A stretch of 64,000 nt of DNA from a virus, in IMG/VR virus record IMGVR_UViG_3300045988_088999, positions 48,961-112,960 of that record. One strand, given 5' to 3'. Positions 12,581 to 63,991 of this stretch are shown here, one piece after another (position 1 is the stretch's first letter; every line of letters begins with the position of its first letter). Both the position numbers and the translations under genes were made by a program. The notes under the pieces were generated by a model. The model was not told where the DNA came from. It saw nothing but the letters and a program-made list of their open reading frames with translations, and did no database searches.

Positions 12581-12864
12581 ATACGCTTATTAGATGTTGG
12601 GCCAAAACAAGACTCACGCTCTTTAAAACCGTACTTGGACAAGTCGCCATCGGAATCGGTTATACATACGTGAATTGCATTTTTATCAATAATTGTATAC
12701 ATGTTACCGTGTTTGAGAGGTCTATTATCATACTCACAGTATGGAAGCCAACCTTTTCTGAATCCTTTGTTAGCATCATATACTTCGTTATCGAAGTAGT
12801 TTTCGATAATCACACTATCCATTGGAACTGTATAACAAAGAACTCCTCTTACGATATTATTCAT
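12559..12864 (-). CDS. hypothetical protein
   Basis: ORF of 101 aa. Confidence 0.45.
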   Translation of the reverse strand: MNNIVRGVLCYTVPMDSVIIENYFDNEVYDANKGFRKGWLPYCEYDNRPLKHGNMYTIIDKNAIHVCITDSDGDLSKYGFKERESCFGPTSNKRIWVNTEV

Positions 12865-14327
12865 AAAATACTACCACCACTTAAATTAAATAATTCGGAT
12901 GCTTTTGCATACAGGGCATCATGTTTATTCTCGATTAAATCTAAGAAATACAGATGCAAAAGATGGTTTAAAGTTTTACGGATGCGGATACCTTCAAAGC
13001 CAATTTCCATAAGGTCATCTCCGTTAATGTCAAGGTCTTTTACAGTGAATACATTTTCGTCCTTAACATCATAGAAGATGCTCATAGAGTCGTAGCATTG
13101 TTCCCAACTGTTTGAATAGCAAGCAGGAATATTACTCTGCATCAGCATCAAATCAAGCATACGTTCTGTATCTTCTTTACCAAGTTTGTTGATAAGAACG
13201 CGCATCTTATATTTGCTCGTAGGGACAAATTCAAAAGACTGCTTGATGATACGACACACAGACTCCATAGTAGCGTTGTCGAACTTTAGGTCTTTCATGA
13301 CGTTATGTGCGATAGCACTTGCCGCAGTTGCAATTTCTTCCAAGGTCAGATGCTTGCGAATTTCGCTTTCAAACATTGTGAGATTACGGAACAGTAACGC
13401 ATAAGAAGTAATCTTATCGCGGTGATTATCACCTTCAATAAATTCATGCGCAATATCTGTATAAAGGTCGAAGCGACTCGGATTTTCTGTATATGAGATA
13501 TTTCCTGTTAGATTATTAAGTTCTGGGATAATTTCTACAAGAATATCGCTAAACTTCATCATAATATCACCGAACTTATATGTTGTAATCATCTTATCAA
13601 GTTCTGCGCGGATTCTCTCTTTAGATACACATTCCAGTTTCTTTTTGCAGACACGCATACCATAGGCCGTGTCTTCGTCAATATTGTAACCAAAGACACA
13701 AGCAAATCGCATAGCACGAAGAATCCGCAAGCCATCCTCTTGAAATCTAAGAACAGGATTGCCAACACATACAATCTTCTCTGCATGGAGACACCAGAAA
13801 CCGTTGTAGGGGTCAACAAAGCCGCGTTCTTTATTATACGCAATAGCGTTAATACTAAAATCACGTCTGCTTAAATCTTCCTCAATGGTTTTAGCGAACT
13901 TTACGCTGTCTGGATGCCGACCGTCAGAATAATCACCATCAATGCGGAACGTGGTAATTTCATACCCTACGCTATCAATCATAACAGTGACAGTACCATG
14001 TTTGATGCCAGTTTCGATAATCTGCTCATTGTTGAATACAGATTCAATCTGCTCCGGTGTTGCAGACGTGGTAATGTCAAAATCTTTTGGAGTTCTCATC
14101 CGAAGCATATCTCTGACACAACCACCTACAAGATATGCTTCATGTCCTGCATTAGATAAAGAATCTAACAAAAACATAGCGGTATTGAATCGCTTATCCT
14201 TCTCAATTTGTGCCAAACAACGCTTCTGGAACGATTCAGAAATAGCATAATTATTGCTATTTAATTTTCTACTCGTAAATCCCTCAACAGGGATAGTATT
14301 AGGTAGCTCCTGTGTTCTAAAACTCAT
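12861..14327 (-). CDS. cca: tRNA nucleotidyltransferase (CCA-adding enzyme / poly(A) polymerase family)
   Basis: YLVGGCVRDMLRMRTPKDFDITT...GTVTV...YEITTFRIDGDYSDGRHP...EEDLSRRDFSINAIA matches the class II head-domain signature GG.VRD...D.D...RRDFTINA. Confidence 0.85.
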   Translation of the reverse strand: MSFRTQELPNTIPVEGFTSRKLNSNNYAISESFQKRCLAQIEKDKRFNTAMFLLDSLSNAGHEAYLVGGCVRDMLRMRTPKDFDITTSATPEQIESVFNNEQIIETGIKHGTVTVMIDSVGYEITTFRIDGDYSDGRHPDSVKFAKTIEEDLSRRDFSINAIAYNKERGFVDPYNGFWCLHAEKIVCVGNPVLRFQEDGLRILRAMRFACVFGYNIDEDTAYGMRVCKKKLECVSKERIRAELDKMITTYKFGDIMMKFSDILVEIIPELNNLTGNISYTENPSRFDLYTDIAHEFIEGDNHRDKITSYALLFRNLTMFESEIRKHLTLEEIATAASAIAHNVMKDLKFDNATMESVCRIIKQSFEFVPTSKYKMRVLINKLGKEDTERMLDLMLMQSNIPACYSNSWEQCYDSMSIFYDVKDENVFTVKDLDINGDDLMEIGFEGIRIRKTLNHLLHLYFLDLIENKHDALYAKASELFNLSGGSIL

Positions 14328-14618
14328 TTACTCCTCCATATACGCTTTCACTGCCAAATAAAGCCGTTCTGCAATTTCATCACAGTATGCTCTATTGATA
14401 ATATTCCCAAAATATCCACGCAGATTCAGTTTAGTTTCCTTAATAGTTTGGTTGTATTTAATTTTGATAGCCTCTATCATAAGGATGTTGAGGTATAGCT
14501 GTACAGTAGTATCGCACCCATGCACCGTTTTACCATCGTGTGTTTCTTGAGCGAAATAGCGGTCTACAAGCGGCTTAACGCTGTAAGCCGCCTCAACATA
14601 AACTCTCGTTATTGCCAT
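14328..14618 (-). CDS. hypothetical protein (start revised to the internal ATG with AAGGA RBS)
   Basis: The tool's GTG start would overlap the upstream micro-ORF. Confidence 0.45.
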   Translation of the reverse strand: MAITRVYVEAAYSVKPLVDRYFAQETHDGKTVHGCDTTVQLYLNILMIEAIKIKYNQTIKETKLNLRGYFGNIINRAYCDEIAERLYLAVKAYMEE

Positions 14619-14634
14619 TGTTACATTATTCCTT

Positions 14635-14784
14635 TCACGCACATACGATTAAATAAAGAATGAGACTCACGGCAACATAAGCGAACCACCAGCCGATGAT
14701 AGCCCACCATGAAATAGAAATGAGGCCAAAAGCCTTTAAAATAGCGACAACGATTGCAATATAATCACCAATACCAAGTCTCAT
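14635..14784 (-). CDS. 49-aa hydrophobic micro-protein (below the ORF-track cutoff)
   Basis: AAGGAGG RBS 9 nt upstream of the ATG. MRLGIGDYIAIVVAILKAFGLISISWWAIIGWWFAYVAVSLILYLIVCA. Confidence 0.45.
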   Translation of the reverse strand: MRLGIGDYIAIVVAILKAFGLISISWWAIIGWWFAYVAVSLILYLIVCA

Positions 14785-14798
14785 TTTTAGATTCCTCC

Positions 14799-15104
14799 TT
14801 AGATACCGTGTTCTTCCATATACGTATTTGTGATGGAATATATTACACGTGCAAATCTAATTGCAGTATCACGCTCACAAACATCCGTGAGCAGTCCGAT
14901 AAGTAATGTCTTTACATTATCAAAACCGAATCCTGCAAGCGTGAATTTGATACCAACATAAACGATGTTTCTTACAAATGTAAGCTCAAGCCCTCTATTG
15001 ATATGATTCTTTACAACAAATTTTCTAATCGCATCGGCAACCATTTCATCACGAAGAATTTCTCCTGCGACCATTATTTGATTGATTTCCATAATATCCA
15101 CCAC
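14799..15104 (-). CDS. hypothetical protein
   Basis: First gene downstream of promoter P2. Confidence 0.5.
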   Translation of the reverse strand: MVDIMEINQIMVAGEILRDEMVADAIRKFVVKNHINRGLELTFVRNIVYVGIKFTLAGFGFDNVKTLLIGLLTDVCERDTAIRFARVIYSITNTYMEEHGI

Positions 15105-15115
15105 CTTACACCTAT

Positions 15116-15144
15116 ATTATACCAAAGAAAATCGGATTTGTCAA
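15116..15144 (-). promoter_or_regulatory. sigma70-type promoter P2 (TTGACA-17-TATAAT)
   Basis: Reverse complement reads gggcTTGACA-N17-TATAATataggtg. Confidence 0.65.
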
Positions 15145-15198
15145 GCCCTTTACGAAAAAACACTATGGTAAAATTTACCATAGTGTTGTATGTAACAG

Positions 15199-15543
15199 TT
15201 AGTTTTTACTAACCGCAAGTTTATCAACAATATTTTCGAGAGATTTAATGTTCAACTCTCGCCGTTCCTGTTTGCTACGTTCTAGCTTTAATGTTATCCT
15301 GCTCTGTAATTTACATTCATATTCAGCATCTTCGAGACAATCGGCATAACAGAATCCCCATGCTGTAACTGCCGTGTAATGTCCATCTTCGCAACGATAG
15401 ACAAATAGCGGTGTTATACCATCACGTTTGTAATATCCCAAAGCTGGGCCAAACAATGTATAACCGCCATCTGGCGACCCTTTGATTCCACAAGCAAATA
15501 CTGGATTGCTCTTTGGAATTTCTCTTTCAAATTTATAAACCAT
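15199..15543 (-). CDS. hypothetical protein
   Basis: ORF of 114 aa. Confidence 0.45.
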   Translation of the reverse strand: MVYKFEREIPKSNPVFACGIKGSPDGGYTLFGPALGYYKRDGITPLFVYRCEDGHYTAVTAWGFCYADCLEDAEYECKLQSRITLKLERSKQERRELNIKSLENIVDKLAVSKN

Positions 15544-15699
15544 GTCGGCCTCCTTAAAATGCTATCTGATACTTTGGAATTGTTTCTTTACGTACCACAA
15601 CACGTTTATTTATATACATTAAAACACTTTGTATCCAAAAGTTTAGTTTCAAAATCCTTACAATCGGGGAGGAATGTCTTTACGCAAAATTATGTTCCG

Positions 15700-16053: not shown

Positions 16054-16065
16054 CTCGACACCTCC

Positions 16066-17819: not shown

Positions 17820-17821
17820 AA

Positions 17822-46661: not shown

Positions 46662-46736
46662 TGGAGCGTCATATTGGAGTCGAACCAATCTAAAAGAGAT
46701 TTGCAGTCTCTCGCCTATCCGTCTGGCACATGACGC
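46662..46736 (-). tRNA. tRNA-Cys (anticodon GCA), CCA encoded
   Basis: Hand-folded cloverleaf: acceptor GCGTCAT/ATGACGC, anticodon arm AGAGA-CTGCAAA-TCTCT, T-arm ATTGG-TTCGACT-CCAAT. Confidence 0.8.
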
Positions 46737-46862
46737 ATATTTGCAATTTAGGTTTTGCGAACCACACATCGAGCATATACTCCGTTAAATCCCCTTGTGG
46801 TACAATCACTCCGAGACGGTTTTGTAACACCGTATGCTCCATTTTGTTCATCTTTACGGTCA

Positions 46863-46953
46863 TGGCGTGGTAGAAGGGATTTGAACCCCTGCACGGCCTA
46901 CGCCGCCTACTTGCTTTCCAAGCAAGCCCCTTCGACCTCTTGGGTACTACCAC
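46863..46953 (-). tRNA. tRNA-Ser (anticodon GGA), type II, CCA encoded
   Basis: Acceptor GTGGTAG/CTACCAC, anticodon arm CTTGC-TTGGAAA-GCAAG, 19-nt variable arm, T-loop TTCAAAT. Confidence 0.75.
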
Positions 46954-46956
46954 ATA

Positions 46957-47187
46957 TTATGCCTTAGTTACTAAAGGCATAACGCGAGTATCGTTGCATC
47001 CAGCGGTTTCATACCTAGTGAATACACGATATTTTCTATCAGATTTCAGAGTATCTTTATAATACTTCAAAATCCTTAAACCGTATTTACTCTTAGACGT
47101 TTTATTATTAACTTGATAATTAGCCCAGTCAATAATCTCTTTTCCAGTAAACATAGTTCCGTTTTGATAGCTCAGAATATTTTTCAT
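46957..47187 (-). CDS. small hypothetical protein (76 aa) inside the tRNA array
   Basis: GAGGT RBS; ORF flanked by tRNAs. Confidence 0.5.
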   Translation of the reverse strand: MKNILSYQNGTMFTGKEIIDWANYQVNNKTSKSKYGLRILKYYKDTLKSDRKYRVFTRYETAGCNDTRVMPLVTKA

Positions 47188-47204
47188 TTGTTACCTCACA
47201 ATAA

Positions 47205-47281
47205 TGGTGTTTCCAGAATGAATCGAACATTCGACCTCAATCTTATCAGGATTGCGCTCTAACCAACTGAGCTATGGAAAC
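47205..47281 (-). tRNA. tRNA-Ile (anticodon GAT), CCA encoded
   Basis: Canonical cloverleaf: GTTTCCA-TA-GCTC-AGTTGGTTA-GAGC-G-CAATC-CTGATAA-GATTG-AGGTC-GAATG-TTCGATT-CATTC-TGGAAAC-A-CCA. Confidence 0.9.
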
Positions 47282-47310
47282 ATAAATTGCTGTCTTTCCA
47301 GCAGTCATCG
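47282..47310. repeat. 29-nt motif ataaattgctgtctttccagcagtcat (5-bp hairpin tgctg/cagca), copy 1 of 2, immediately 5' of a tRNA
   Basis: Identical copy at 48832-48860. Confidence 0.5.
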
Positions 47311-47429
47311 GTTTATCCGCAATGTGCTTGTTCCTTAACACAAACACGGCATACTGTCATATCACGCATTTACTATATTTTTTACGCATACCAGCTACAA
47401 TAGTTGCAACTCGAAAACTACTTACCGCG

Positions 47430-47517
47430 TGGTGCGCCCGGTGGGACTTGAACCCACGATAGGAATAATCCACCCCGGATTAAAAGTCCGGTGCTATACC
47501 AACTTAGCTACGAGCGC
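47430..47517 (-). tRNA. tRNA-Lys (anticodon TTT) with an unusual 17-nt variable region
   Basis: Acceptor GCGCTCG/CGGGCGC (one G.T), anticodon arm CCGGA-CTTTTAA-TCCGG, T-arm GTGGG-TTCAAGT-CCCAC. The variable region GGTGGATTATTCCTATC is far longer than in normal Lys tRNAs. Confidence 0.6.
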
Positions 47518-47656
47518 AAATGAAAGCACGAATACCCGCCCACGTGCATGGTACTTGCTCTTCTGTCTTGTCAGTACCTCCCAAGTCCATTAACTCTATG
47601 GACACGATAGTTAAAAATACTTGCCTATACCTATTCTACCACGGCATAGGTGCGAT

Positions 47657-47744
47657 TGGAGCCAGTGACAGGACTTGAACCTGCGAGAACCCTTTCGGCA
47701 TCGGGATTACAAAACCCGCGTTCTACCAACTGAACTACACTGGC
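47657..47744 (-). tRNA. tRNA-Thr (anticodon TGT) with an unusual 17-nt variable region
   Basis: Acceptor GCCAGTG/CACTGGC, anticodon loop TTTGTAA, T-arm GCAGG-TTCAAGT-CCTGT. Variable region ATGCCGAAAGGGTTCTC. Confidence 0.6.
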
Positions 47745-47842
47745 AAATCTAAAAGACACATTAAAAATTGAACAATAAAGCTACTCAAAATTTAACAAGA
47801 GTTTGCTGGATGTGTCTTTTCATATATAAAAATAAAGGAGGG

Positions 47843-48079
47843 TTATTTTCTTACCTTCATATCTAACATAGTAAGCCTATCTTCACGCCTAAAAGAAATT
47901 ATATCATACCATCTTTCTAAGATGTATTTTAGCTGTCTAAGTTCACTCTCGTTGAACGGTTCACGTTCATCTCTTAGATATAAAGTAACAATTCCATTTT
48001 CTTCACCAATCTTTAGTCGGGAAATCTTGCTCATAATGTTATCATCAGCAACTTCACCCAACATTTGAAAGAAAACCAT
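47843..48079 (-). CDS. small hypothetical protein (78 aa) inside the tRNA array
   Basis: ORF between tRNA genes. Confidence 0.45.
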   Translation of the reverse strand: MVFFQMLGEVADDNIMSKISRLKIGEENGIVTLYLRDEREPFNESELRQLKYILERWYDIISFRREDRLTMLDMKVRK

Positions 48080-48135
48080 AGGATTATTATTATCAATCTA
48101 CTGCATCGGATTCATTCCCCTTCTTTTTTAGATTT

Positions 48136-55785: not shown

Positions 55786-56991
55786 TTACTGTTTAAACAA
55801 AGTAGCAAACATCTTAGATGCTTCACTACGAACATCGGTGTCAAGAAATACGCAAGCAAAATTAGGGCTACCCTTAAATTCGTCACACATCTTAACAAGC
55901 GGATTGCTAATAGTCTTATTGATTAGTGACTGCTTATAGTCACCAGAAAAGAAAATTCTTGAGTTCTGACCAAGCCGTGTGCCAACCAAACGCAACTGTG
56001 ATTCCGTCAAATCCTCTGCTTCATCAACGACCATAATGGTGCTATCGTAAGTAGTTCCTTTTAGATAATAAGGAATCTGTACATCAAGTACACCGCGCTG
56101 CTTCAGACTCTGCAACTCGAACTCACCGCCTTTTAACTGTTGCTCCAAAGGCTTAAAGAAATCACCAACTTTTTGCTCAAACTCTCCGGGCAAGTAACCA
56201 ACTGCGCTACCTTCGCCACGCGCTTCACGTACACCAAGAATCTTGGACTGATAGCCTTTCTCATTTACACCATACAATCCCATCTGCATAGACAAGAAGG
56301 ACTTACCGGAACCATACGTTCCTAGAATTGCAACAATGTCAATATCCTTGTTGTTTAAAGCGTCAAGCGCACATCTCTGCAAACTGTTCTTACCCTTAAT
56401 AATTCCAGACGGAGGTAGCTTTAATTCAACAAATTTTTTGCCATCAAAACGCATTTCTTTCGTTTTGCCAATCGACTTATCGTCAATTACAATATACTCA
56501 TTGGCATACAACTTCGACATATCAATAACATCCATCTGCTCATTGATTTCGTCAGTTGTGCCGCTAATCTTAATATATCCCTCGTAAATATCTTCTTTAA
56601 TGCTATTTAGCGTCTCTGTTTTTAGACAAAAGATGTTTTTCGCAATGTTATAGCAATTTACATCATCTGTAACAAAAACGACATCATCTGTTTCAGAATT
56701 TAACAGATATGCTTCTGTTGTAATAATTGCATCCGGCGTTACCTCAAGTCCTCTTGCGGCCAATTCCTTAACAATTCTGTCATAAGGGTAGTTACAAACG
56801 ATATAATTGTTCCCATCCTGAAAAGCGTGTGCCACTTTCCTTGCGCGATACCTAGTTTCATCGTCTTTCTTGCCAGATGTCTTAATGCTCTCAATTTCCT
56901 CAAGCGTTTTATGAGAACATGCAAATTTCTCAATAAATGCACTTTCACGCAGACTTAGCAGAGCATTGGTATCATAGAAAGTTAATGCCAT
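55786..56991 (-). CDS. PIN-domain + PhoH-like ATPase (YlaK-type)
   Basis: N-terminal PIN-like acidic fold (MALTFYDTNALL); P-loop ILGTYGSGKSF of PhoH-family ATPases. Confidence 0.65.
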   Translation of the reverse strand: MALTFYDTNALLSLRESAFIEKFACSHKTLEEIESIKTSGKKDDETRYRARKVAHAFQDGNNYIVCNYPYDRIVKELAARGLEVTPDAIITTEAYLLNSETDDVVFVTDDVNCYNIAKNIFCLKTETLNSIKEDIYEGYIKISGTTDEINEQMDVIDMSKLYANEYIVIDDKSIGKTKEMRFDGKKFVELKLPPSGIIKGKNSLQRCALDALNNKDIDIVAILGTYGSGKSFLSMQMGLYGVNEKGYQSKILGVREARGEGSAVGYLPGEFEQKVGDFFKPLEQQLKGGEFELQSLKQRGVLDVQIPYYLKGTTYDSTIMVVDEAEDLTESQLRLVGTRLGQNSRIFFSGDYKQSLINKTISNPLVKMCDEFKGSPNFACVFLDTDVRSEASKMFATLFKQ

Positions 56992-57040: not shown

Positions 57041-57946
57041 TTAATGTGCGTTTACATCACAGTTATGCACTTGCATAACCTCGTTATATATTTCGTCGCC
57101 AAGACGTTCACGCATCTTATCTTTTCCGGTATTGCCCTTACCAAACGTATAGGGAATCATGTGGTAGTTGATAAGAACTGCAATATGCAGTTTATCTTTG
57201 TCCGTAATTTCTTTCGGATAGTTCAAGAACAAAGAATCATACGCACCAACATTCTGATGACTGTAATAATGTGCGTTTCCATCAGTTGTTCCATTCATTT
57301 TAGTAAATGTCTTAGTAGCCGGTTTACCAATATCATGGACAAGAGCAGCCCACTGAACATACATATTGTATTCCTCATTCACTGCGTAACGCCACGCCTC
57401 TTTCATGTGTGCGCCAAGCGTAAACTCGTGATGCGGATTTTCCTGATTGTAATTCAAAAGGCTGTCAACAAGGTCAAACGGCTCATACGGAGCTACCAAC
57501 TTAACGCGCCGAACGGTAATTTCGTCCCATCCCTCGAAGTAGTACGGAATGTCAATTCCCTTACGCATACGCTCCATAGCAGACATGGGGACTTTCCGCT
57601 CTCGCTTCTGATTGCGCATAACGCAGACAGAATACGGAGTAGCCATAAAGACGCAATGCTTATGACACTTTACCTTCGCCATCTCGCGCAAGAATCCTTC
57701 GCGCCGTTTAGCATTGATATTCGTTGCATCATACACGACACTAAAACCGTCTTTCATTGCAGTGCGAATGCGATTATGCAGAGTGTTAAATACCAGATTA
57801 TTGTCAGTCTGGTCATTTTCATCACCAAAAAGTTCCTTGCGAATCGCATCAGAACTAAAGATGAGATACCCCTTTCCCATATACTCATTCGCTACGGTAG
57901 ACTTTCCGCTTGCCGGAAGTCCAACCAACATAACAAACTCCTGCAT
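57041..57946 (-). CDS. P-loop kinase fused to HD-domain phosphohydrolase (polynucleotide-kinase-like RNA/nucleotide repair enzyme)
   Basis: Walker A GLPASGKST at the N-terminus; HD motif AALVHDIGK plus downstream His residues at the C-terminus. Confidence 0.55.
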   Translation of the reverse strand: MQEFVMLVGLPASGKSTVANEYMGKGYLIFSSDAIRKELFGDENDQTDNNLVFNTLHNRIRTAMKDGFSVVYDATNINAKRREGFLREMAKVKCHKHCVFMATPYSVCVMRNQKRERKVPMSAMERMRKGIDIPYYFEGWDEITVRRVKLVAPYEPFDLVDSLLNYNQENPHHEFTLGAHMKEAWRYAVNEEYNMYVQWAALVHDIGKPATKTFTKMNGTTDGNAHYYSHQNVGAYDSLFLNYPKEITDKDKLHIAVLINYHMIPYTFGKGNTGKDKMRERLGDEIYNEVMQVHNCDVNAH

Positions 57947-57958: not shown

Positions 57959-59221
57959 TTAATTACAGTTGGCAGTATATCTAGCATCTTCACCAGCGCC
58001 AAGATAACGAGAAACAAAATTCGGTAACGATGCAAAATTTTCAGAGATGACGTTTGCGAAATCAATCACACCAGTCACACTTTCACGTCCATCCATGATA
58101 TAATGAATTTTCTTATTATCGCACTGGTCAACAGCGTTGATAGCAAACGATAAGTTGAAGTCTCCTTCAACAAATTGTGTCACGCTCAGGTCGCGCATAA
58201 TGCGACCAACAAATCTGTCAACATCAAACATGGCGTATCTAATGCTACCCTGCCATTCGTTGTGTACGTTTGTGTTATCAATAATTTTTGTGCTTAGATT
58301 ATTTACATCAGTCTCGCCCGGAAGAATACCAGCACCATGTCGAGTTGTATACCAACGTGTAGCATAACAAATCTCAATGTCGAACTCGTCCATACTCTTT
58401 ACATCGAAACCATCTAAAACATCAAAATCTGAACTAAGCCCGGTATATGTCGGAGTCGTATTCTCACCTTGCTCGTAGTATTTCTGCGAAATTGCAAGAC
58501 CCTGCGCGTTTTCAAACACAAGTCGCTTATATTTTGCACTAAGCTCTGTCTTAGTAAACTTTTTTACCGTAACGTGTTTGATAAAGAAGGCCAAGTCGCT
58601 CAAAAAAGACAATACGTAATCTTTCTCAAAGTTACTAACGAACTGCTCCGGGATGTCACGGCCATCAAGAACCTCATGTAAACGTGCAGGAACATAATCC
58701 ATACAAATAATATCCAACTTTTCTGCAATCGGAATCCAGTTATTCTCTTCGTTCGCTTTCTGGACTTCTTTTACAGTAATTGCGTATTTTGGCTTTTTGC
58801 TACGGATAATGGCTTCATAGACACCAAGACCACAAGAACCAAAGCGACCATCACCAAGCGCAGTTTCCCAACACTGGTTAATTAAAGCATCCCAAGGCGT
58901 AGCAACGAAACAGTTTTCATCGACATATACATTCGGAGTAAAACCAAGTTCACGCAGTTCATCCCACTCCGTAGAAAATACCATAGGATTTACCTGAAAA
59001 ATTTCACTGATAATAGTATCAGCGCCGTTCATAGTTCCAGAACCGAAGTGATGAAAAATATGTCGCTTATCTCCTTTTACAACAGTATGACCCCGCTGTG
59101 CTCCTCCGTTTGTGAGCACAACAGCCATATCGCCGTTCTTACATTCACGAGTAAAGTAGTCAACAGTTCGACCTTTACCCTCGTCACCATACTGTGCGCC
59201 AATCACAATCTTAATGTCCAT
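57959..59221 (-). CDS. adenylosuccinate synthetase homolog (PurA family), start revised to MDIKIVIG
   Basis: KIVIGAQYGDEGKGRTVD (GxQWGDEGKGK), NGGAQRGHTVV (GGHNAGH), GRFGSCGLG. GGGAGGG RBS before the internal ATG, and promoter P12 lies inside the tool's longer ORF. Confidence 0.75.
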   Translation of the reverse strand: MDIKIVIGAQYGDEGKGRTVDYFTRECKNGDMAVVLTNGGAQRGHTVVKGDKRHIFHHFGSGTMNGADTIISEIFQVNPMVFSTEWDELRELGFTPNVYVDENCFVATPWDALINQCWETALGDGRFGSCGLGVYEAIIRSKKPKYAITVKEVQKANEENNWIPIAEKLDIICMDYVPARLHEVLDGRDIPEQFVSNFEKDYVLSFLSDLAFFIKHVTVKKFTKTELSAKYKRLVFENAQGLAISQKYYEQGENTTPTYTGLSSDFDVLDGFDVKSMDEFDIEICYATRWYTTRHGAGILPGETDVNNLSTKIIDNTNVHNEWQGSIRYAMFDVDRFVGRIMRDLSVTQFVEGDFNLSFAINAVDQCDNKKIHYIMDGRESVTGVIDFANVISENFASLPNFVSRYLGAGEDARYTANCN

Positions 59222-59255
59222 ATAAACCCTCCCGTCAAGTATCTTTGACACCATT

Positions 59256-59284
59256 ATTATATCATAGACGCTAGGAAAAGTCAA
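59256..59284 (-). promoter_or_regulatory. sigma70-type promoter P12 (TTGACT-17-TATAAT)
   Basis: Reverse complement reads ccccTTGACT-N17-TATAATaatgg. Confidence 0.65.
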
Positions 59285-59336
59285 GGGGTTTTGCAAAATA
59301 AAAAGCGTGGATTTCTCCACGCTAAATCGTTAGATT

Positions 59337-60299
59337 TTAGAACTCGACCAAGCCATTGACTGCGGTAGCAGTGTTATTCCCAGTTGTTGCCAGTCCTTCG
59401 ATAGCCTTACGGACAACGATTCCGGTAGAACCATCCCAGCTATCACAGATAGAGTCAATGTCCTTGCCAGCCAGTGCTTCCAAAATGGAAACAACAATTT
59501 CGGCAATCTTGTTGTAGTCAGACACATGGATTGCACGTTCACCCAGAAGTTCACCAAAGCTATCATCGACAAGGCTTGTATCGTGATAACGATAACGATT
59601 AGAATAGTAGTTGCCCTGCTCGATAATCAGATGGAAAACATCCCAATCACGACTAACTGCATTCAGCAGCTCTTCGGAACTAATGCTGTCCTCTTCGATA
59701 GTAGTTCCAAATACCTTCTGAATCTGCCTACGAGTGAGTTTATCGGGACACGGCTCGTCACCCATAGTAATCAAAATACCCTTCTTATGACGCTTTTCGA
59801 TTGCATCCGCACTAACATAATTGGTTGCAAAATACCAAGGAAGTGTATAAGACTCCTGACTATTGCCACCACCCCTTCCTTCGTACCACACCTTCTGCAA
59901 AGCCTCTGCGATGCGAATGTCGCTCTCAAACTGACTTACCTGAAGCGGTGCGAGGTCATAGTCAGCATCACCAACAGCCATAAAGCAAACCTGCGGGTCG
60001 GTAATAGAACCACGATTATAAATCTCCTGCATCAGAGTATTAAGGTTCATAATAACAGAGCGCAGAACAGGCGACATAGAACCAGTGACATCCAGCGCAA
60101 TGATAATAGGCGTACTATTCGGATTATCATGGCTGTCACGAGACTCGCGGACAGTAATATTTTTCGGATTCATGTCATCCGGCATAGCGGTTGACTGATA
60201 TAGACTAGACGAGCCGCCACCAGAAACACTCGTCTTATTGCTGACATGACGAGTAGAATAACTGTCCCAGCTAGATGCGTCCCAATGCGAATATCCCAT
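59337..60299 (-). CDS. von Willebrand factor A domain protein
   Basis: MIDAS motif IIALDVTGSMSP. Confidence 0.55.
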   Translation of the reverse strand: MGYSHWDASSWDSYSTRHVSNKTSVSGGGSSSLYQSTAMPDDMNPKNITVRESRDSHDNPNSTPIIIALDVTGSMSPVLRSVIMNLNTLMQEIYNRGSITDPQVCFMAVGDADYDLAPLQVSQFESDIRIAEALQKVWYEGRGGGNSQESYTLPWYFATNYVSADAIEKRHKKGILITMGDEPCPDKLTRRQIQKVFGTTIEEDSISSEELLNAVSRDWDVFHLIIEQGNYYSNRYRYHDTSLVDDSFGELLGERAIHVSDYNKIAEIVVSILEALAGKDIDSICDSWDGSTGIVVRKAIEGLATTGNNTATAVNGLVEF

Positions 60300-60319: not shown

Positions 60320-61333
60320 TTACAATTTAATTTTACCCATTTCTGGATTCATCTTAGTAAATGTGCGTTTTCCAAATGCCGCATCAAGCGACATTTCCCA
60401 TCTCTTCATTTCTGTAGGCGGGTATTCACCAGACCCGGTTCTTAGCCACATCATAATCTGGTCTGGAACTGTTGCGTCTGAAATTTTTGAAGTGCATCCA
60501 AGCAACTTAATTCCGAGCATCTTGATACATTCCATATCAGTGCTTTTCTTAGATTTCTTGTTACGCTTTGCAGATGGCGGCATTACATCATAAACCTCAC
60601 TGCTAACGCCAATCATCTTAGTGTCAACAGGACGTGTGTACCACCAACCACCATACAGCATAATTCCATGTCGCGCAATATCAACAAAGCAACTGTTAAT
60701 ATCAATTCCGTTATGAACGATATTATTGTAAGACAAGAAACATGCAAGATTAAGCAGACGTGAAATCATCCAAGCAGTATGCTTAATAGGAATCCTACCG
60801 TTAAAGTTACTCCACACCTCAGACAGAGGAACACAGCCGTATTCACGTTTGATAATAATTACGCGTTCATCGTTATTTTCAAAATTCTGAACAATATGCG
60901 GTAATGCGTAATCAATACTCTGCATCATATCTCTAGGACACGAGAATTTTGTTGAATTGATGTAATTGTCGTAATACTTTTTATGCTGTCTAGCAATTAC
61001 GTATACAACGTGATTATTACACAAATACATCTTGCCAAGTTCAAAGTTATATTCTTTTAGATACGAAACAACGAGCGTTTTGCCGTTTGGTTTAAGCAAC
61101 CGAACCTTGTTAGTTTCATCCCATTTACCTTTAGCGATAAGGTCTGTAGCTTTTTCATAAAGCATCACAATCTTTGACGTTACTTCTTGGTACGTCATTT
61201 CTCCATTGTGAAAGTCTGGATGAAACGCTTTCAGATATTCACGATACTCTGCTTTTAAGATTACAGGGTCGTTCGTGAATACATCATCAACAGACGATGC
61301 TTTTAGAACATCATCAACTGTCTTGCACTTCAC
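60320..61333 (-). CDS. J-domain (DnaJ-like) protein
   Basis: YREYLKAFHPDFH contains the HPD tripeptide in J-domain context. Confidence 0.55.
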   Translation of the reverse strand: MKCKTVDDVLKASSVDDVFTNDPVILKAEYREYLKAFHPDFHNGEMTYQEVTSKIVMLYEKATDLIAKGKWDETNKVRLLKPNGKTLVVSYLKEYNFELGKMYLCNNHVVYVIARQHKKYYDNYINSTKFSCPRDMMQSIDYALPHIVQNFENNDERVIIIKREYGCVPLSEVWSNFNGRIPIKHTAWMISRLLNLACFLSYNNIVHNGIDINSCFVDIARHGIMLYGGWWYTRPVDTKMIGVSSEVYDVMPPSAKRNKKSKKSTDMECIKMLGIKLLGCTSKISDATVPDQIMMWLRTGSGEYPPTEMKRWEMSLDAAFGKRTFTKMNPEMGKIKL

Positions 61334-61356
61334 TTTATCCCTCCGTTTCTATCATT

Positions 61357-61385
61357 ATTATACACCTAAAGGCACAGTTTGTCAA
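61357..61385 (-). promoter_or_regulatory. sigma70-type promoter P13 (TTGACA-17-TATAAT)
   Basis: Reverse complement reads ccgcTTGACA-N17-TATAATaatga. Confidence 0.65.
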
Positions 61386-61413
61386 GCGGTTTTATCAAAA
61401 AATATGCACAATT

Positions 61414-62220
61414 TTACGCCTCCGCTTTGTCACAATTTTGGTCAAAATCACGGTACAGAATATACTTTTTTACAACACCATTAGCAAATGAGATAGCATT
61501 AAACCAGCCGGGCGGATTCGGTTCATCTTTTACTGGCGGTTCAATATTTTTTACTTCATCAAAGAACTGTGCGCTATCAAGAACGCCACTCTTAACATTG
61601 CCAATAAAGCATCTCTCAGACAGGTCAGCAATATAAAATTCTGGGCGCGAATTTAACTGTACACTACTTTCATTCATGAGCTGGCCGTAAAGATTCTTTA
61701 AGCGCAACGCTTCGTACATCCGTTTTGACTGTCTTTCTTCCTCGCCATTAGCACAAGAGTTTCTGTCATAATCGTTTAGAATATTACGAATTGCCCCATA
61801 TACAGCGTTCTGATAGTTCCACAAGTATCTATCATAAATCTCTTTTCTGACATTATAAAAATCTCGAAAAGAATCGTCCACAATGACGTAATCGGAAAAT
61901 AGCGATTCGAGATTAACAAAACTACCCTTTGACAGCTGTTTTGCGAAATCACGAATATCCATCAACTTTACCAGACCATCATCAGAGGAATCAGACGAGA
62001 ACTCCACTTGCGTCAACGTCTTTACATCTGGTTTACCACCGATTAAATCATCAAGTGATGGCATGGTAACAATAACACAGTCAATATCGGAATTACTATC
62101 GTCAAGACCATAATTCTGACTACCAAATAAACCAACAAATGCAACCTTGCACTTTCTATTTAGCTCGATATAGTCCTTTCTACTTTTCAATCTCGCCAAA
62201 ATTCTATGATACTTACCCAT
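61414..62220 (-). CDS. Pol-beta-superfamily nucleotidyltransferase
   Basis: FVGLFGSQNYGLDDSNSDIDCVIV fits the NTase-fold signature GS-x9-13-DxD. Confidence 0.55.
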   Translation of the reverse strand: MGKYHRILARLKSRKDYIELNRKCKVAFVGLFGSQNYGLDDSNSDIDCVIVTMPSLDDLIGGKPDVKTLTQVEFSSDSSDDGLVKLMDIRDFAKQLSKGSFVNLESLFSDYVIVDDSFRDFYNVRKEIYDRYLWNYQNAVYGAIRNILNDYDRNSCANGEEERQSKRMYEALRLKNLYGQLMNESSVQLNSRPEFYIADLSERCFIGNVKSGVLDSAQFFDEVKNIEPPVKDEPNPPGWFNAISFANGVVKKYILYRDFDQNCDKAEA

Positions 62221-62581
62221 TTAATCTCATCCTTTCTGCCTTTAACCACGCTTCTGGTGTCAATTTAGTATAGAACTCACCATAGGCATTACTATTAAAG
62301 AATTTCTCCTGACTTTCCAAGGATAGCGATTCAACGTATTCAAACATTGCATCCTCATCTTTGTATTCAAGTAAATCCTCTTCGACTGCATCACTATTAT
62401 CGGCAAGTTCTCTATTTTCCACAGCAACAATAAACTTAAATGGACTATTTTCGAGGCAGTTCTTGCAAAGGAATAGTCTCGTTCCCCATCCATCAAATCG
62501 ACTACCGTATTTCAGCGGTAAAATATCAATAGCGACTACATTAGTGTCTGCATTACATTTCATACATTTCTCGTTATTCAT
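62213..62581 (-). CDS. zinc-finger protein
   Basis: CMKCNAD...CKNC. Confidence 0.45.
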   Translation of the reverse strand: MNNEKCMKCNADTNVVAIDILPLKYGSRFDGWGTRLFLCKNCLENSPFKFIVAVENRELADNSDAVEEDLLEYKDEDAMFEYVESLSLESQEKFFNSNAYGEFYTKLTPEAWLKAERMRLNG

Positions 62582-62805
62582 TTCTTAATACCGCCTTTAT
62601 AATGTCTTAAATAATATGTGAAACGCTCAGTAAACTCTTCGTCGGTCAGTGTTTTATCAAGTACGGTCTTTGAAATATTGTAAGTTACTATCCTGTACTG
62701 ACCATTAAAACTGAACTCTGTGATGTTACAATCTTTATCGACAAAATACAAAATTTTGCCACTATCAATAATATCAACAAGCTGTTCGTATGTATGATAT
62801 GCCAT
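62578..62805 (-). CDS. small hypothetical protein
   Basis: ORF of 75 aa. Confidence 0.4.
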   Translation of the reverse strand: MAYHTYEQLVDIIDSGKILYFVDKDCNITEFSFNGQYRIVTYNISKTVLDKTLTDEEFTERFTYYLRHYKGGIKK

Positions 62806-62869
62806 TTAATAAATAATGCCGACTTATCTTCATATTAAAGACAGTATCGGCACTTCTCCTTATTTTAGA

Positions 62870-63991
62870 TTACTCGTCATGCTTCATCATATACTTACGG
62901 CTGACGTTCTTAAAAGAACGCTGACCATCAAGGCTACGATAAACCCAGCCCTCACGCAAACCAGTGCCAACAATACACTCACCATCAGCATCCAACTTCA
63001 AAGTTTCCATATCGTCAGGCAAGATATAATGCTCGTCTGCGATAGGAACCCAATCAATGCCATTGGCATTGCAAATCTTCTTTGCCTCCAAGGAGTTGAT
63101 ACGTCCAATATCAGAACGAATCAGATTGTAACCAAAGAAACGCACCTCACCATACTTATGAGGATTACCCTGAAGATTAGGGCCAGCGGTTTCACCCTGC
63201 AATGCCGCATACTTTAGGTTATTATCCTTGATGTAACGCTTCAAGAACTCATCAATATGATACTTGTCGTTCATATCCCAGTACACATTAGATTCAGCGT
63301 TACCGCCCTTATTGTGCCAAGTGAACTGATTACGGTCAAGCTGACGTACATTACGAGAACATACATAATACTCCCAACGACCAAACGGTTTCTTTTCCAT
63401 GATATAAGTAGAAGAAGTTCCATCAATCTTCTGGGTCTTAATCCAAGGCTCTTTGTCCTTCAGAATAAATGGCATATTCTCAACGCGCTCTTCATCCGAC
63501 TTCTTTACGTATTCAAACTTAGTAGGGAACTTACGAGGATTAGTTACCTTCTTGCCAGTAAAGAAATTCTTGATACGCTCGAAGAAAGTCAGCTTCTTTT
63601 CAACCACATCCGACTTACGGGCGTTGTCCTCCTCGACAGAATAACGAACCTTCAAAATATCGGTAACATCATCACCGATATTTGCATCCTTTAATTCGTC
63701 AAATACACTCACAGGCATAATCAATCCCTGAGAGTATACCTTGCACATCTTAATACACTTAACCTTATAGTCACGCTTTGCCATAAAAGCGAACCGAGGG
63801 TCGTTTGCATTTACCTTAGAGTCAACCTCAAAATAAACACACTTATCTCCGGGCTTAAACTGGTCAGCCTTAGAAACAATGACTCCCCATCCCCCTACTC
63901 TAGCGTATTCTACCCTATCATACCCATCCAAAGGAGAGATGTCGTCAATCTTAGTAATATACGCTAAAGCTCTTTTACCATTGATAATCAT
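62870..63991 (-). CDS. ATP-dependent RNA ligase, Rnl5 (Deinococcus DraRnl-like) family with N-terminal OB-like domain
   Basis: GDKCVYFEVDS, QGLIMPVSVF, GDDVTDILKV, FPTKFEYVKKSDEERVEN. Motif I KTQKIDGTS (KxDG) lies near residue 188, as in DraRnl. Confidence 0.7.
   Translation of the reverse strand: MIINGKRALAYITKIDDISPLDGYDRVEYARVGGWGVIVSKADQFKPGDKCVYFEVDSKVNANDPRFAFMAKRDYKVKCIKMCKVYSQGLIMPVSVFDELKDANIGDDVTDILKVRYSVEEDNARKSDVVEKKLTFFERIKNFFTGKKVTNPRKFPTKFEYVKKSDEERVENMPFILKDKEPWIKTQKIDGTSSTYIMEKKPFGRWEYYVCSRNVRQLDRNQFTWHNKGGNAESNVYWDMNDKYHIDEFLKRYIKDNNLKYAALQGETAGPNLQGNPHKYGEVRFFGYNLIRSDIGRINSLEAKKICNANGIDWVPIADEHYILPDDMETLKLDADGECIVGTGLREGWVYRSLDGQRSFKNVSRKYMMKHDE

What the first reader, a model, noticed from the sequence alone, without database searches (positions are those of the whole stretch)
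12861..63991. Dispersed RNA end-healing and repair toolkit alongside the tRNA array
The window encodes a CCA-adding enzyme (12861-14327, GG.VRD...DxD head), a Thg1-like 3'-5' nucleotidyltransferase (50137-50979, RIDSRAGHTF / QSDEIT), a P-loop kinase fused to an HD phosphohydrolase (57041-57946), an Rnl5/DraRnl-type RNA ligase with an OB-like N-domain (62870-63991, block-by-block similarity including KIDGTS at ~K188), a PIN-PhoH protein and a Pol-beta NTase. Together these can rebuild both the 3' CCA and the 5' end of tRNAs and reseal nicks. That set looks like a counter-measure to host anticodon nucleases or tRNA-targeting defence systems (PrrC/RloC/VapC-like). A Thg1-like enzyme plus an Rnl5 ligase is an uncommon pairing compared with the classic T4 Pnk+Rnl1 pair.
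Basis: partly seen in the sequence, partly recalled or inferred. Interest (0 to 1): 0.55.

Follow-up and report, generated by a model that had tools for sequence, protein, structure and literature searches.

The report
Phage tRNA repair gene toolkit
A roughly 150-kb gut phage carries a full set of enzymes able to heal, rebuild and reseal broken tRNAs next to its own 14 tRNA genes; the gene calls are correct, but this kind of phage RNA-repair kit is already described in the literature.

Summary
They are a class II CCA-adding enzyme, a bacterial-type Thg1-like 3'-5' polymerase (TLP), a polynucleotide kinase fused to an HD phosphoesterase, an Rnl5 (DraRnl/NgrRnl-type) RNA ligase, a PIN-PhoH protein and a Pol-beta nucleotidyltransferase, which proves to be a divergent RlaP.

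I add a Ro60/TROVE-like protein inside the window. A peptidyl-tRNA hydrolase, a YqeY protein and a separate DNA ligase lie just beyond its end.

The genes are functionally linked. In related gut phages Rnl5, RlaP-like NTase, Pnk-HD and TLP form one compact same-strand cassette, often with no tRNA gene within 10 kb.

The counter-defence reading is plausible but untested. One detail is doubtful: characterised Rnl5 ligases seal duplex nicks, not anticodon-loop breaks.

The TLP plus Rnl5 pairing is not unprecedented. It occurs in cultured jumbo phages such as GAP32 and across this gut-phage clade. Published comparative genomics already describes such toolkits.

Verdict: a real, well-read, new member of a known kind, of moderate to low interest. 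Side observations are body-swapped tRNA alleles and a diversity-generating retroelement.

The parts
12861..14327 (-). Class II CCA-adding tRNA nucleotidyltransferase (488 aa)
   Evidence: Pfam PolyA_pol 6.9e-37, PolyA_pol_RNAbd and tRNA_NucTran2_2. NCBIfam CCA tRNA nucleotidyltransferase PRK13299, 1.5e-75, 254.8 bits, below the 290-bit equivalog cut-off. Motifs GGCVRD/DFD, RRD and EDGLR read directly.
46662..49576 (-). tRNA array. Order along the minus strand: Trp, Arg-UCU, odd tRNA-like, Glu-CUC, Phe, Arg-ACG, Leu-AAG, Val, Thr-UGU, Lys-UUU, Ile, Ser, Cys
   Evidence: ARAGORN and Rfam tRNA. Across all 14 tRNA genes, counting the separate Arg-CCU gene, 12 encode CCA. Glu-CUC (49002-49074) and the odd tRNA-like (49086-49157) do not.
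50137..50922 (-). Bacterial-type Thg1-like protein (TLP), a templated 3'-5' RNA polymerase (261 aa from the ATG at 50922)
   Evidence: Pfam Thg1 9e-25. PDB 4kgk (BtTLP) 5.8e-60, against 2.8e-5 for a fungal (Candida albicans) Thg1, 3wbz. Catalytic RID and SDE motifs are conserved. The exact protein is found on other contigs.
51508..51583 (-). tRNA-Arg(CCU), alone at the 3' end of the Ro60-like/flotillin transcription unit
   Evidence: ARAGORN and Rfam, 45.3 bits. A sigma-70-type promoter lies upstream of the unit near 55005 and another just downstream of the tRNA.
53221..54720 (-). Ro60/TROVE-like RNA-binding protein with a C-terminal VWA domain (DUF2828 + DUF7788)
   Evidence: Pfam DUF2828 9.9e-50 and DUF7788 1.7e-29. 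phrog_850 'RNA-binding protein' 5.2e-129. AlphaFold model with pLDDT 90. Best Foldseek PDB hits are full-length Ro60/TROVE: 9kop 6.9e-9, 1yvr 4.4e-8, Deinococcus Rsr 2nvo 1.9e-6. A DUF2828 gene lies next to the Rnl5 ligase in phage GAP32.
55786..56991 (-). PIN-PhoH (PhoH2-like) predicted RNase/RNA helicase
   Evidence: Pfam PhoH 2e-30 and PIN_4 7.9e-5. NCBIfam PhoH2 5.6e-23, far below the equivalog cut-off. Also found near Rnl5 in the 51%-identity relative L010.
57041..57946 (-). Pnk-HD: N-terminal 5'-OH polynucleotide kinase fused to a C-terminal HD(IG) phosphoesterase (predicted end-healing enzyme)
   Evidence: Pfam AAA_33 2.3e-24 and HD 6.5e-5. PDB CthPnkp kinase 2.7e-12 and T4 Pnk 2.3e-5; HD matches the HD of CCA/A-adding enzymes. 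P-loop GLPASGKS, SSDxxR and VHDIGK read directly. Full-length orthologues overlap an Rnl1-type ligase gene in Tsamsa-like phages.
61414..62220 (-). Pol-beta superfamily nucleotidyltransferase, a divergent RlaP (RNA-ligase-associated)
   Evidence: Pfam NTP_transf_2 3.7e-5; RlaP 5.5e-4 (20.1 bits, cut-off 23). phrog_388 nucleotidyltransferase 6.9e-18. 14 of 16 aligned family members match RlaP, best 4.3e-6. GS...DxD motif is invariant. The gene sits between Rnl5 and Pnk-HD in relatives.
62870..63991 (-). Rnl5-family ATP-dependent RNA ligase (N-terminal OB-like domain plus NTase domain)
   Evidence: Pfam PHA02142 OB 2e-18 and RNA_ligase 2e-11. PDB NgrRnl 5cot 5.5e-29, with motifs I (K188), III (QGE), IV (REGWV) and V (FK) aligned. 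TIGR02306 DraRnl model 3.9e-21, full length.

Best explanation
The window belongs to a roughly 150-kb tailed phage of the human gut, related to large Firmicutes siphoviruses. It carries a multi-enzyme RNA (mainly tRNA) repair and translation-maintenance module.

The enzyme families and their conserved catalytic motifs are shown here. The pathway below is inferred.
1. Host or competitor ribonucleases break tRNAs, leaving 2',3'-cyclic phosphate or 3'-phosphate and 5'-OH ends.
2. The HD domain of Pnk-HD removes the 3' phosphate, and the kinase domain phosphorylates the 5'-OH.
3. The RlaP-like nucleotidyltransferase can add back a nucleotide lost at the 3' side of the break.
4. The Rnl5 ligase seals the resulting 3'-OH/5'-phosphate junction. 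It most likely does so where the ends are held in a duplex or stem context.
5. If the 5' strand of the acceptor stem is shortened, the Thg1-like polymerase rebuilds it 3'-to-5', using the 3' strand as template.
6. If the 3' end is trimmed, the CCA-adding enzyme restores CCA. It also matures the two phage tRNAs that lack an encoded CCA.
7. A Ro60-like protein probably binds or chaperones damaged or misfolded RNAs.
8. PIN-PhoH, together with the peptidyl-tRNA hydrolase encoded just past the window end, probably clears unrepairable RNA and stalled peptidyl-tRNA.
9. The 14 phage tRNAs back up depleted host species.

The most likely net purpose is to keep translation running during infection despite tRNA-targeting defence or toxin nucleases.
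For: Enzyme identities rest, and catalytic motifs are intact.

Synteny:
- 24 of 72 loci around TLP homologues carry a full-length Pnk-HD within 10 kb.
- At least 10 carry Rnl5, several of them cut by the locus edge.
- About 17 carry the NTase, and 16 carry a CCA enzyme.
- L037 reads, co-directionally, HD / Metallophos / Rnl5 / RlaP-like / Pnk-HD / TLP, with four small or uncharacterised ORFs interspersed.
- NTase, Rnl5 and PIN-PhoH are linked in L010, whose ligase is 51% identical.
- Pnk-HD overlaps an Rnl1-type ligase gene in Bacillus phage Skywalker.
- Rnl5 lies next to a DUF2828 gene in GAP32, and inside a tRNA array with RtcB nearby in Microbacterium phage Cece.

A separate DNA ligase, PTH2 and YqeY lie just upstream of the ligase in the 97%-identical genome L005.

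Literature:
- TLPs repair 5'-truncated tRNAs in vitro (PMC3061083, PMC4820378).
- A Thg1 / PNK / RNA ligase neighbourhood was predicted in 2010 (PMC2904730).
- Phage toolkits combining tRNAs, ligases, Pnk, phosphoesterases, RlaP, CCA enzyme, Thg1, TROVE, PTH2 and PIN-PhoH are reviewed in PMC7824862.

tRNA-Lys and tRNA-Leu show allele swaps with compensatory stem changes between genomes about 95% identical. This is compatible with selection from tRNA-recognising nucleases.
Against: - No activity was measured, and the host and its nucleases are unknown.
- Characterised Rnl5 ligases prefer duplex nicks and are poor on single-stranded RNA, and their physiological substrates are unknown (PMC4408790, PMC5397189). 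The classic anticodon-loop repair step is therefore not the expected one.
- In this window the genes are spread over 51 kb and interleaved with unrelated genes: an adenylosuccinate-synthetase-like gene, a VWA gene, a gene with a J-domain-like motif and a flotillin gene.
- The NTase and PIN-PhoH fall below the curated family cut-offs.
- No Y-RNA-like partner for the Ro60-like protein was found.
Confidence: 0.6

Rival explanations
1. The enzymes serve routine maturation and quality control of the phage's own tRNAs rather than repair of nuclease damage. On this view the CCA enzyme completes the CCA-less tRNAs, the TLP corrects imperfect 5' ends, and the Ro60-like protein handles misfolded transcripts.
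For: - Two of the 14 tRNA genes (Glu-CUC and the odd tRNA-like) lack an encoded CCA and are packed 6-11 nt from their neighbours.
- tRNA-Trp has an A1/C72 mismatch, and the odd tRNA-like has mismatches at acceptor positions 2-4.
- TLP and the array are adjacent in this lineage.
- Rnl5 sits inside a tRNA array in phage Cece.
Against: - 12 of 14 tRNAs encode CCA, and there is no tRNA-His.
- The compact Rnl5 / RlaP / Pnk-HD / TLP cassette of relatives has no tRNA gene within 10 kb.
- A kinase-phosphoesterase and a ligase have no role in normal bacterial tRNA maturation (established knowledge).
- The odd tRNA-like folds no better than shuffled sequence (z = 0.18) and may be a decaying pseudogene.
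Confidence: 0.2
2. The ligase and Pnk-HD act in DNA replication or repair. They would seal RNA-3'-OH/DNA-5'-phosphate junctions at primers or ribonucleotide patches and heal DNA ends. Their closeness to tRNA enzymes would then be incidental.
For: - Rnl5 enzymes seal nicks with an RNA 3'-OH strand and a DNA 5'-phosphate strand in vitro.
- Loss of DraRnl sensitises Deinococcus to ionising radiation (PMC4408790, PMC5397189).
- Runella HD-Pnk heals both DNA and RNA ends (PMC6097658).
- The cluster lies beside the replication module: DnaE-type polymerase, primase-helicase, SSB and a PD-(D/E)XK nuclease.
Against: - The phage has a dedicated ATP-dependent DNA ligase.
- Linkage to TLP, RlaP and Ro60-like genes recurs in other phages, and PTH2 lies near the ligase in this phage lineage. 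None of these has a DNA role.
Confidence: 0.12
3. The genes are unrelated accessory genes that merely share an early-gene region, with no joint pathway.
For: In this window they are scattered over 51 kb and separated by unrelated genes. The CCA gene is 36 kb from the rest.
Against: Same-strand adjacency of four of them is conserved in relatives whose proteins are only about 23-60% identical to the window's. Independent ligase/Pnk-HD and ligase/DUF2828 adjacencies occur in Bacillus and enterobacterial phages.
Confidence: 0.05

Closest known systems
Phage RNA-repair toolkits described by comparative genomics (Burroughs & Aravind 2016, cited in PMC7824862; Iyer et al. 2021 jumbo-phage survey, PMC7824862)
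   Same: The component list is the same: phage tRNAs, ATP-dependent RNA ligase, polynucleotide kinase, phosphoesterase, RlaP nucleotidyltransferase, CCA-adding enzyme, Thg1, TROVE/Ro protein, PTH2 and PIN-PhoH. The proposed purpose, reversing host attacks on tRNA, is also the same.
   Different: This is a roughly 150-kb non-jumbo gut phage. Its ligase is Rnl5-type, whereas that survey lists mainly Rnl1, Rnl2 and RtcB. The kinase is fused to an HD domain. In relatives, four of the genes form one compact cassette.
T4 Pnkp + Rnl1 anticodon-loop repair (counter to PrrC)
   Same: A heal-and-seal logic: a 5'-kinase, a 3'-phosphoesterase and an ATP-dependent ligase, encoded by a phage that also carries tRNAs.
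   Different: The phosphatase is HD rather than the DxDxT (HAD-type) domain. The ligase is Rnl5 (N-terminal OB, duplex-nick preference) rather than Rnl1 (loop-specific). There are also extra TLP, RlaP, CCA and Ro60-like components. No pairwise similarity was found between the window ligase and an Rnl1-type phage ligase.
Tsamsa-like and FADO-like large Bacillus siphoviruses (e.g. vB_BanS_Skywalker)
   Same: They have an orthologous full-length Pnk-HD (31-34% identity) and a related DnaE polymerase (about 41%). A TLP is present in FADO-like phages. They also carry an NTase, a DNA ligase and YqeY.
   Different: There, Pnk-HD overlaps an Rnl1-type 'tRNA ligase' gene and an Rnl2-like ligase is also present. 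Here an Rnl5 ligase takes that place, which is non-orthologous displacement of the sealing enzyme.
Cronobacter phage GAP32 / Yersinia phage fHe-Yen9-04 (cultured jumbo phages)
   Same: They carry both a Thg1-like gene and an Rnl5-type (PHA02142) ligase about 15 kb apart. In GAP32 a DUF2828 (Ro60-like) gene lies directly next to the ligase.
   Different: Proteins are only 30-38% identical, the hosts are Gram-negative, and the genome architecture differs. No Pnk-HD was detected in them in the rows I saw.
Runella slithyformis HD-Pnk / ligase repair cluster
   Same: An HD phosphoesterase fused to a 5'-OH polynucleotide kinase, genetically linked to an ATP-dependent ligase (PMC6097658).
   Different: The domain order is reversed (HD-Pnk there, Pnk-HD here). 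It is bacterial rather than phage, and its partners are Tpt1 and MTase-HIT rather than TLP and RlaP.

Membership tests
Rnl5 RNA ligases (DraRnl/NgrRnl) | N-terminal OB-like domain followed by the nucleotidyltransferase domain, with no C-terminal appendage | tested here: met
   PF21189 covers residues 9-94 and PF09414 residues 181-361 of 373. The protein aligns end to end with NgrRnl (residues 3-338 of 340) and with TIGR02306 (2-341 of 341).
Rnl5 RNA ligases (DraRnl/NgrRnl) | Motif I lysine nucleophile (KxDG) and motifs III, IV and V | tested here: met
   K188-IDG aligns with NgrRnl K170-LDG. ALQGE, REGWV and SFK also align. K170 is essential in NgrRnl (PMC4408790).
Rnl5 RNA ligases (DraRnl/NgrRnl) | Score above the curated equivalog cut-off of the DraRnl model | tested here: not met
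   TIGR02306 scores 75.3 bits against a cut-off of 151.15. The protein is therefore a divergent family member, not an equivalog.
Rnl5 RNA ligases (DraRnl/NgrRnl) | Seals 3'-OH/5'-phosphate nicks in duplexes that have an RNA 3'-OH strand | not testable with these tools
   This needs a biochemical assay.
Thg1-like proteins (bacterial TLP) | Thg1 palm domain with the metal-binding carboxylates | tested here: met
   PF04446 9e-25. RID and SDE align with the BtTLP catalytic residues.
Thg1-like proteins (bacterial TLP) | Closer to bacterial TLPs than to eukaryotic tRNA-His-specific Thg1 | tested here: met
   4kgk (BtTLP) 5.8e-60, archaeal TLP 5axk 2.7e-8, fungal (Candida albicans) Thg1 3wbz 2.8e-5.
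Thg1-like proteins (bacterial TLP) | Template-dependent 3'-5' addition to 5'-truncated tRNA | not testable with these tools
   Shown for BtTLP in PMC3061083, not for this protein.
Class II CCA-adding enzymes | Head-domain motifs A (GGxVRD..DxD), B (RRD) and D (EDxxR) | tested here: met
   GGCVRD...DFD, SRRD and EDGLR are read in the translation. PolyA_pol head 6.9e-37.
Class II CCA-adding enzymes | Score above a curated CCA equivalog cut-off, which would separate it from poly(A) polymerase and from CC- or A-adding enzymes | tested here: inconclusive
   The best model is the CCA enzyme PRK13299, at 254.8 bits against a cut-off of 290. PcnB models score lower.
T4-type Pnkp | 5'-kinase P-loop with the Asp general base and Arg | tested here: met
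   GLPASGKS and SSDAIR align with the D38 region of CthPnk and with T4 Pnk.
T4-type Pnkp | DxDxT (HAD-type) 3'-phosphatase domain | tested here: not met
   The C-terminal domain is HD/HDIG (PF01966 6.5e-5, TIGR00277), resembling the HD of CCA-adding enzymes. It could work like Pnkp but is not a member of that family.
Runella-type HD-Pnk | N-terminal HD followed by C-terminal Pnk | tested here: not met
   The order here is Pnk (residues 5-132) then HD (195-267).
RlaP (RNA-ligase-associated Pol-beta NTase) | Match to Pfam PF10127 above the gathering score | tested here: inconclusive
   The window protein scores 20.1 bits against a cut-off of 23. 14 of 16 aligned family members match at E <= 0.01, best 4.3e-6.
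RlaP (RNA-ligase-associated Pol-beta NTase) | Genomic association with an RNA ligase | tested here: met
   In the window the two genes are 650 nt apart. In L037, L024, L030 and L019-21 the NTase lies between Rnl5 and Pnk-HD, and in L010 it is near Rnl5.
Ro60/TROVE proteins | TROVE helical-repeat ring plus a VWA domain with a MIDAS motif | tested here: met
   The AlphaFold model (pLDDT 90) matches full-length Ro60 and Rsr structures, E 7e-9 to 2e-6, TM 0.44-0.60. DTSGSM MIDAS motif (alignment).
Ro60/TROVE proteins | Sequence-level match to solved Ro60/TROVE proteins, and a Y-RNA partner nearby | tested here: not met
   No Ro60 hit by sequence against the PDB. No Y RNA or YrlA above noise (best E = 0.52, lying over two tRNAs).
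PhoH2 (PIN-PhoH) | N-terminal PIN domain fused to a PhoH ATPase | tested here: met
   PIN_4 7.9e-5 (residues 7-118) and PhoH 2e-30 (198-395). The equivalog model scores only 81.6 bits against a cut-off of 680.

The most novel reading that the evidence does not exclude
The conserved cassette pairs a duplex-nick-specific ligase (Rnl5) with a template-dependent 3'-5' polymerase (TLP), an end-healing Pnk-HD and an RlaP-like NTase. It could encode an uncharacterised excision-repair-like pathway for structured RNA. In that pathway a damaged stretch in a tRNA stem is removed, the gap is refilled in the reverse (3'-5') direction from the downstream fragment using the opposite strand as template, and the remaining nick is sealed by Rnl5. 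A Ro60-like protein might hold the broken RNA. This would give Rnl5 and bacterial or phage TLPs their first physiological substrates.
Probability: 0.12. Interest if true: 0.7.

Novelty: new member of a known kind. Interest (0 to 1): 0.3.

Why it matters
This is a well-populated example of a phage translation-rescue kit in an uncultured human-gut phage lineage. It shows that the kit extends beyond jumbo phages.

It is useful because neither Rnl5 ligases nor bacterial-type TLPs have a known physiological substrate. A conserved four-gene cassette (Rnl5, RlaP-like NTase, Pnk-HD, TLP) gives biochemists a defined enzyme set to reconstitute together.

The concept itself, that phages repair tRNAs cut by host defences, is established. 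The window therefore adds an instance and some candidates rather than a new principle.

Tried and rejected
- Exact-protein look-ups failed for the 280-aa TLP ORF, because the start codon was wrong, and for the ligase. The NTase look-up gave only a 1.3-kb contig.
- I considered that the kinase-HD and the neighbouring adenylosuccinate-synthetase-like gene form a PurZ/DatZ-type 2-aminoadenine DNA-modification pair. I rejected this. The PurZ model scores 28 bits against a cut-off of 300. The kinase best matches polynucleotide kinases, and the HD best matches CCA-enzyme HD domains. Pnk-HD orthologues overlap RNA ligase genes in other phages.
- I considered that the ligase is the phage's DNA ligase. 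I rejected this because of its RNA-ligase profiles and the separate DNA ligase upstream.
- Sequence search of the DUF2828 protein against the PDB gave nothing useful, and a literature search for DUF2828 was uninformative. Only structure prediction plus a fold search revealed the Ro60 relationship.
- A search for a Y-RNA/YrlA partner with Rfam at permissive thresholds found none.
- Burroughs & Aravind 2016 is not held in the library, so it is cited only through PMC7824862.
- I looked at tRNA-His in L081 to test a G-1 role for the TLP but did not resolve it.
- The 320-aa and 337-aa proteins between the PurA-like gene and the NTase have no Pfam or NCBIfam hits. By eye they carry a VWA MIDAS motif and a J-domain-like HPD motif. 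I did not count them as part of the toolkit.

Full report
**What is in the window.** From about 8.4 kb to the end, the genes run on the minus strand. The region includes a replication and nucleotide-metabolism module: a DnaE-type polymerase, a primase-helicase, SSB, ThyX, FolD, UDG and Dam methylases. The polymerase is 59% identical to one from a human faecal phage contig and about 41% identical to those of large Bacillus siphoviruses such as FADO and PBC2. No GenBank phage is similar at the DNA level. IMG/VR does hold 148-150-kb contigs whose ligase is 97% identical. The source is therefore an uncultured gut phage of about 150 kb.

**Check of the observation.**
- The 12861-14327 product is a class II CCA-adding enzyme (PolyA_pol head 6.9e-37; best NCBIfam model the Bacillus-type CCA enzyme). 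Motifs A, B and D are readable.
- The 50137 ORF is a Thg1-family protein. Its closest solved relative is the Bacillus thuringiensis Thg1-like protein (5.8e-60), far ahead of a fungal (Candida albicans) Thg1 (2.8e-5). The real start is the ATG at 50922; that 261-aa protein occurs verbatim on other metagenomic contigs.
- The 57041-57946 product has an N-terminal kinase. Its best structural relatives by sequence are the Clostridium thermocellum Pnkp kinase (2.7e-12), PSTK and T4 Pnk. Its C-terminal HD/HDIG domain most resembles the HD domains attached to CCA-adding enzymes.
- The 62870-63991 product aligns end to end with Naegleria gruberi Rnl5. K188 sits on the catalytic K170, and motifs III, IV and V are conserved. 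It also matches the DraRnl model over its full length, though below the equivalog cut-off.
- PIN-PhoH (55786-56991) and a Pol-beta nucleotidyltransferase (61414-62220) are confirmed.
- The tRNA array holds 14 genes.

**Additional members.** The 499-aa DUF2828/VWA protein (53221-54720) matches phrog_850 'RNA-binding protein' at 5e-129. A confident AlphaFold model (pLDDT 90) matches full-length Ro60/TROVE structures, including Deinococcus Rsr. The phage therefore encodes a Ro60-like protein.

In the 97%-identical genome L005, the DNA just beyond the window end encodes PTH2, a YqeY-domain protein, an isochorismatase and a separate ATP-dependent DNA ligase. That removes the need for the Rnl5 enzyme in DNA joining.

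The NTase belongs to a family in which 14 of 16 aligned members hit Pfam RlaP (best 4.3e-6). The window copy itself is just under the cut-off.

**Are the genes linked?** I fetched 72 viral loci around TLP homologues, most of them from phage contigs of 100-220 kb, and searched them with the window proteins.
- A full-length Pnk-HD lies within 10 kb in 24 of them.
- Rnl5 lies within 10 kb in at least 10, some of them cut by the locus edge.
- The NTase is present in about 17.
- A CCA-adding enzyme is present in 16, from a different sub-clade.

In L037 the order is HD, Metallophos, Rnl5, RlaP-like NTase, Pnk-HD, TLP, all on one strand within 7 kb and with four small or uncharacterised ORFs interspersed; Pfam confirms the six named genes. 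L024, L030 and L019-21 share the Rnl5 / NTase / Pnk-HD order, and L084 and L029 have Rnl5 next to Pnk-HD.

Three further linkages come from less closely related phages:
- NTase, Rnl5 and PIN-PhoH in L010, whose ligase is 51% identical.
- Pnk-HD overlapping an Rnl1-type ligase gene in Tsamsa-like Bacillus phages.
- Rnl5 next to a DUF2828 gene in GAP32, and inside a tRNA array near RtcB in Microbacterium phage Cece.

The 'dispersed' layout in this window is thus a loosened version of a real cassette.

None of the compact-cassette loci has a tRNA gene within 10 kb. The cassette therefore does not depend on a neighbouring phage tRNA array.

**Mechanism.** The families and their intact catalytic motifs are shown. 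The pathway is inferred.
- Pnk-HD would convert 2',3'-cyclic-phosphate or 3'-phosphate and 5'-OH ends into 3'-OH and 5'-phosphate ends.
- The RlaP-like NTase would restore a lost nucleotide.
- Rnl5 would seal the junction.
- The TLP would rebuild a shortened 5' acceptor strand in the 3'-5' direction. BtTLP does this in vitro (PMC3061083).
- The CCA enzyme would restore 3' ends. It is also needed for the two phage tRNAs that lack an encoded CCA: Glu-CUC and an odd tRNA-like gene.
- The Ro60-like protein, PIN-PhoH and PTH2 fit RNA quality control and ribosome rescue as discussed in PMC7824862.

Characterised Rnl5 enzymes seal nicks in duplexes and are feeble on single-stranded RNA, whereas Rnl1 and Rnl4 are the loop-break specialists (PMC4408790). 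The expected substrate is therefore a break held in a helical context, not a classic anticodon-loop break. Relatives of this phage use the same Pnk-HD with an Rnl1-type ligase, so the ligase here is a non-orthologous replacement.

**Counter-defence or housekeeping?** This cannot be settled by computation, because the host is unknown. Against pure housekeeping: 12 of 14 tRNAs encode CCA, there is no tRNA-His, the cassette occurs without nearby tRNAs, and normal tRNA maturation needs neither a kinase-phosphoesterase nor a ligase.

A hint of conflict-driven evolution comes from the tRNAs themselves. Between genomes about 95% identical, tRNA-Lys(UUU) and tRNA-Leu exist as alternative alleles. These share flanks and acceptor ends but have different D, anticodon and T stems with compensatory changes, and different variable-arm lengths. 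The array is also the least conserved and most indel-rich stretch of the compared region.

**Comparison with what is known.**
- The association of Thg1 with polynucleotide kinase and RNA ligase genes was predicted in 2010 (PMC2904730).
- The full parts list was laid out for jumbo phages in 2021: tRNAs, ligases, Pnk, phosphoesterases, RlaP, CCA enzyme, Thg1, TROVE, PTH2 and PIN-PhoH (PMC7824862).
- The specific TLP plus Rnl5 pair exists in the cultured phages GAP32 and fHe-Yen9-04.

This is therefore a new member of a known kind. Its particular features are an Rnl5 sealing enzyme, a Pnk-HD fusion in the reverse order to Runella HD-Pnk (PMC6097658), and a compact four-gene cassette in relatives.

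**Verdict.** Interest is about 0.3. The most novel reading not excluded is reverse-direction gap filling followed by duplex nick sealing of tRNA stems. I give it a probability of about 0.12.

Noticed in passing
window 436-3526 (+): A diversity-generating retroelement. The variable repeat is at 1513-1632, at the 3' end of the DUF6273 ORF (436-1644). The template repeat is at 2259-2378. A reverse transcriptase ORF lies at 2858-3526 (RVT_1 6.4e-16). Every mismatch in the 120-nt repeat lies at an adenine of the template copy.
   Followed up: partly
window 47430-47517 and 48556-48632; L014-L018: tRNA-Lys(UUU) is 85 nt long with a 13-nt variable arm here and in L015 and L017. In L014, L016 and L018 it is a normal class I tRNA with different D, anticodon and T stems (compensatory changes) but identical flanks and acceptor ends. 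tRNA-Leu is a class I AAG tRNA here, whereas the relatives have a class II GAG tRNA. These look like allelic body swaps within genomes about 95% identical.
   Followed up: partly
window 47657-47744: tRNA-Thr(UGU) also carries a long variable region of about 15 nt, which is unusual for a Thr tRNA. The relatives have an extra Thr(CGU) gene directly after it that is missing here.
   Followed up: no
window 49086-49157 (-): An odd tRNA-like gene is found only by Rfam (41 bits). It has a 6-nt anticodon loop (CCGAAA), mismatches at acceptor positions 2-4, and no encoded CCA, and it lies 11 nt upstream of tRNA-Glu. It folds no better than shuffled sequence (z = 0.18). It may be a decaying tRNA-Phe-like pseudogene or a substrate for 5' editing.
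   Followed up: partly
window 46737-51600 (-), the leaders of all tRNA genes: Nearly every tRNA gene is immediately preceded by (U)UAUAU or UAU at positions -5 to -1, usually just after a short 4-6-bp hairpin. The Arg-ACG and Ile leaders share the sequence CTGCTggaaagaCAGCAatttat. This may be a shared processing signal.
   Followed up: no
window about 49600-49650, 51440-51500 and 54975-55010 (-): There are near-consensus sigma-70-type promoters (TTGACA-17-TATAAT, TAGAAT or TAAAAT) with similar spacer sequence. They lie upstream of tRNA-Trp, downstream of tRNA-Arg(CCU), and upstream of the Ro60-like operon. tRNA-Arg(CCU) therefore appears to be co-transcribed with the Ro60-like and flotillin genes.
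   Followed up: no
window 57959-59320, 59337-60299 and 60320-61333 (-): A divergent adenylosuccinate-synthetase-like gene scores far below both the PurA and PurZ cut-offs, and its probable start is near 59221. It is followed by a VWA-like protein (DVTGSM motif, phrog_2971) and a 337-aa protein with a J-domain-like HPD motif. The PurA-like/VWA pair recurs near TLP in 12-13 other phage loci. Its function is unknown.
   Followed up: partly
window 51630-53162 (both strands) and 8442-9296 (-): There are two SPFH/flotillin-family genes. The 510-aa one, which lies directly downstream of the Ro60-like gene, is mirrored by a 499-aa antisense ORF with no family match; that ORF is probably spurious.
   Followed up: no
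window 10484-11518 (-): One ORF combines an N-terminal GIY-YIG nuclease domain with a Rep3-type replication initiator WH1 domain.
   Followed up: no
window 50137-50922 (-), TLP residues about 117-153 (numbered from the ATG at 50922): The TLP has an insertion of about 37 residues relative to the Bacillus thuringiensis TLP structure, between the two conserved halves.
   Followed up: no
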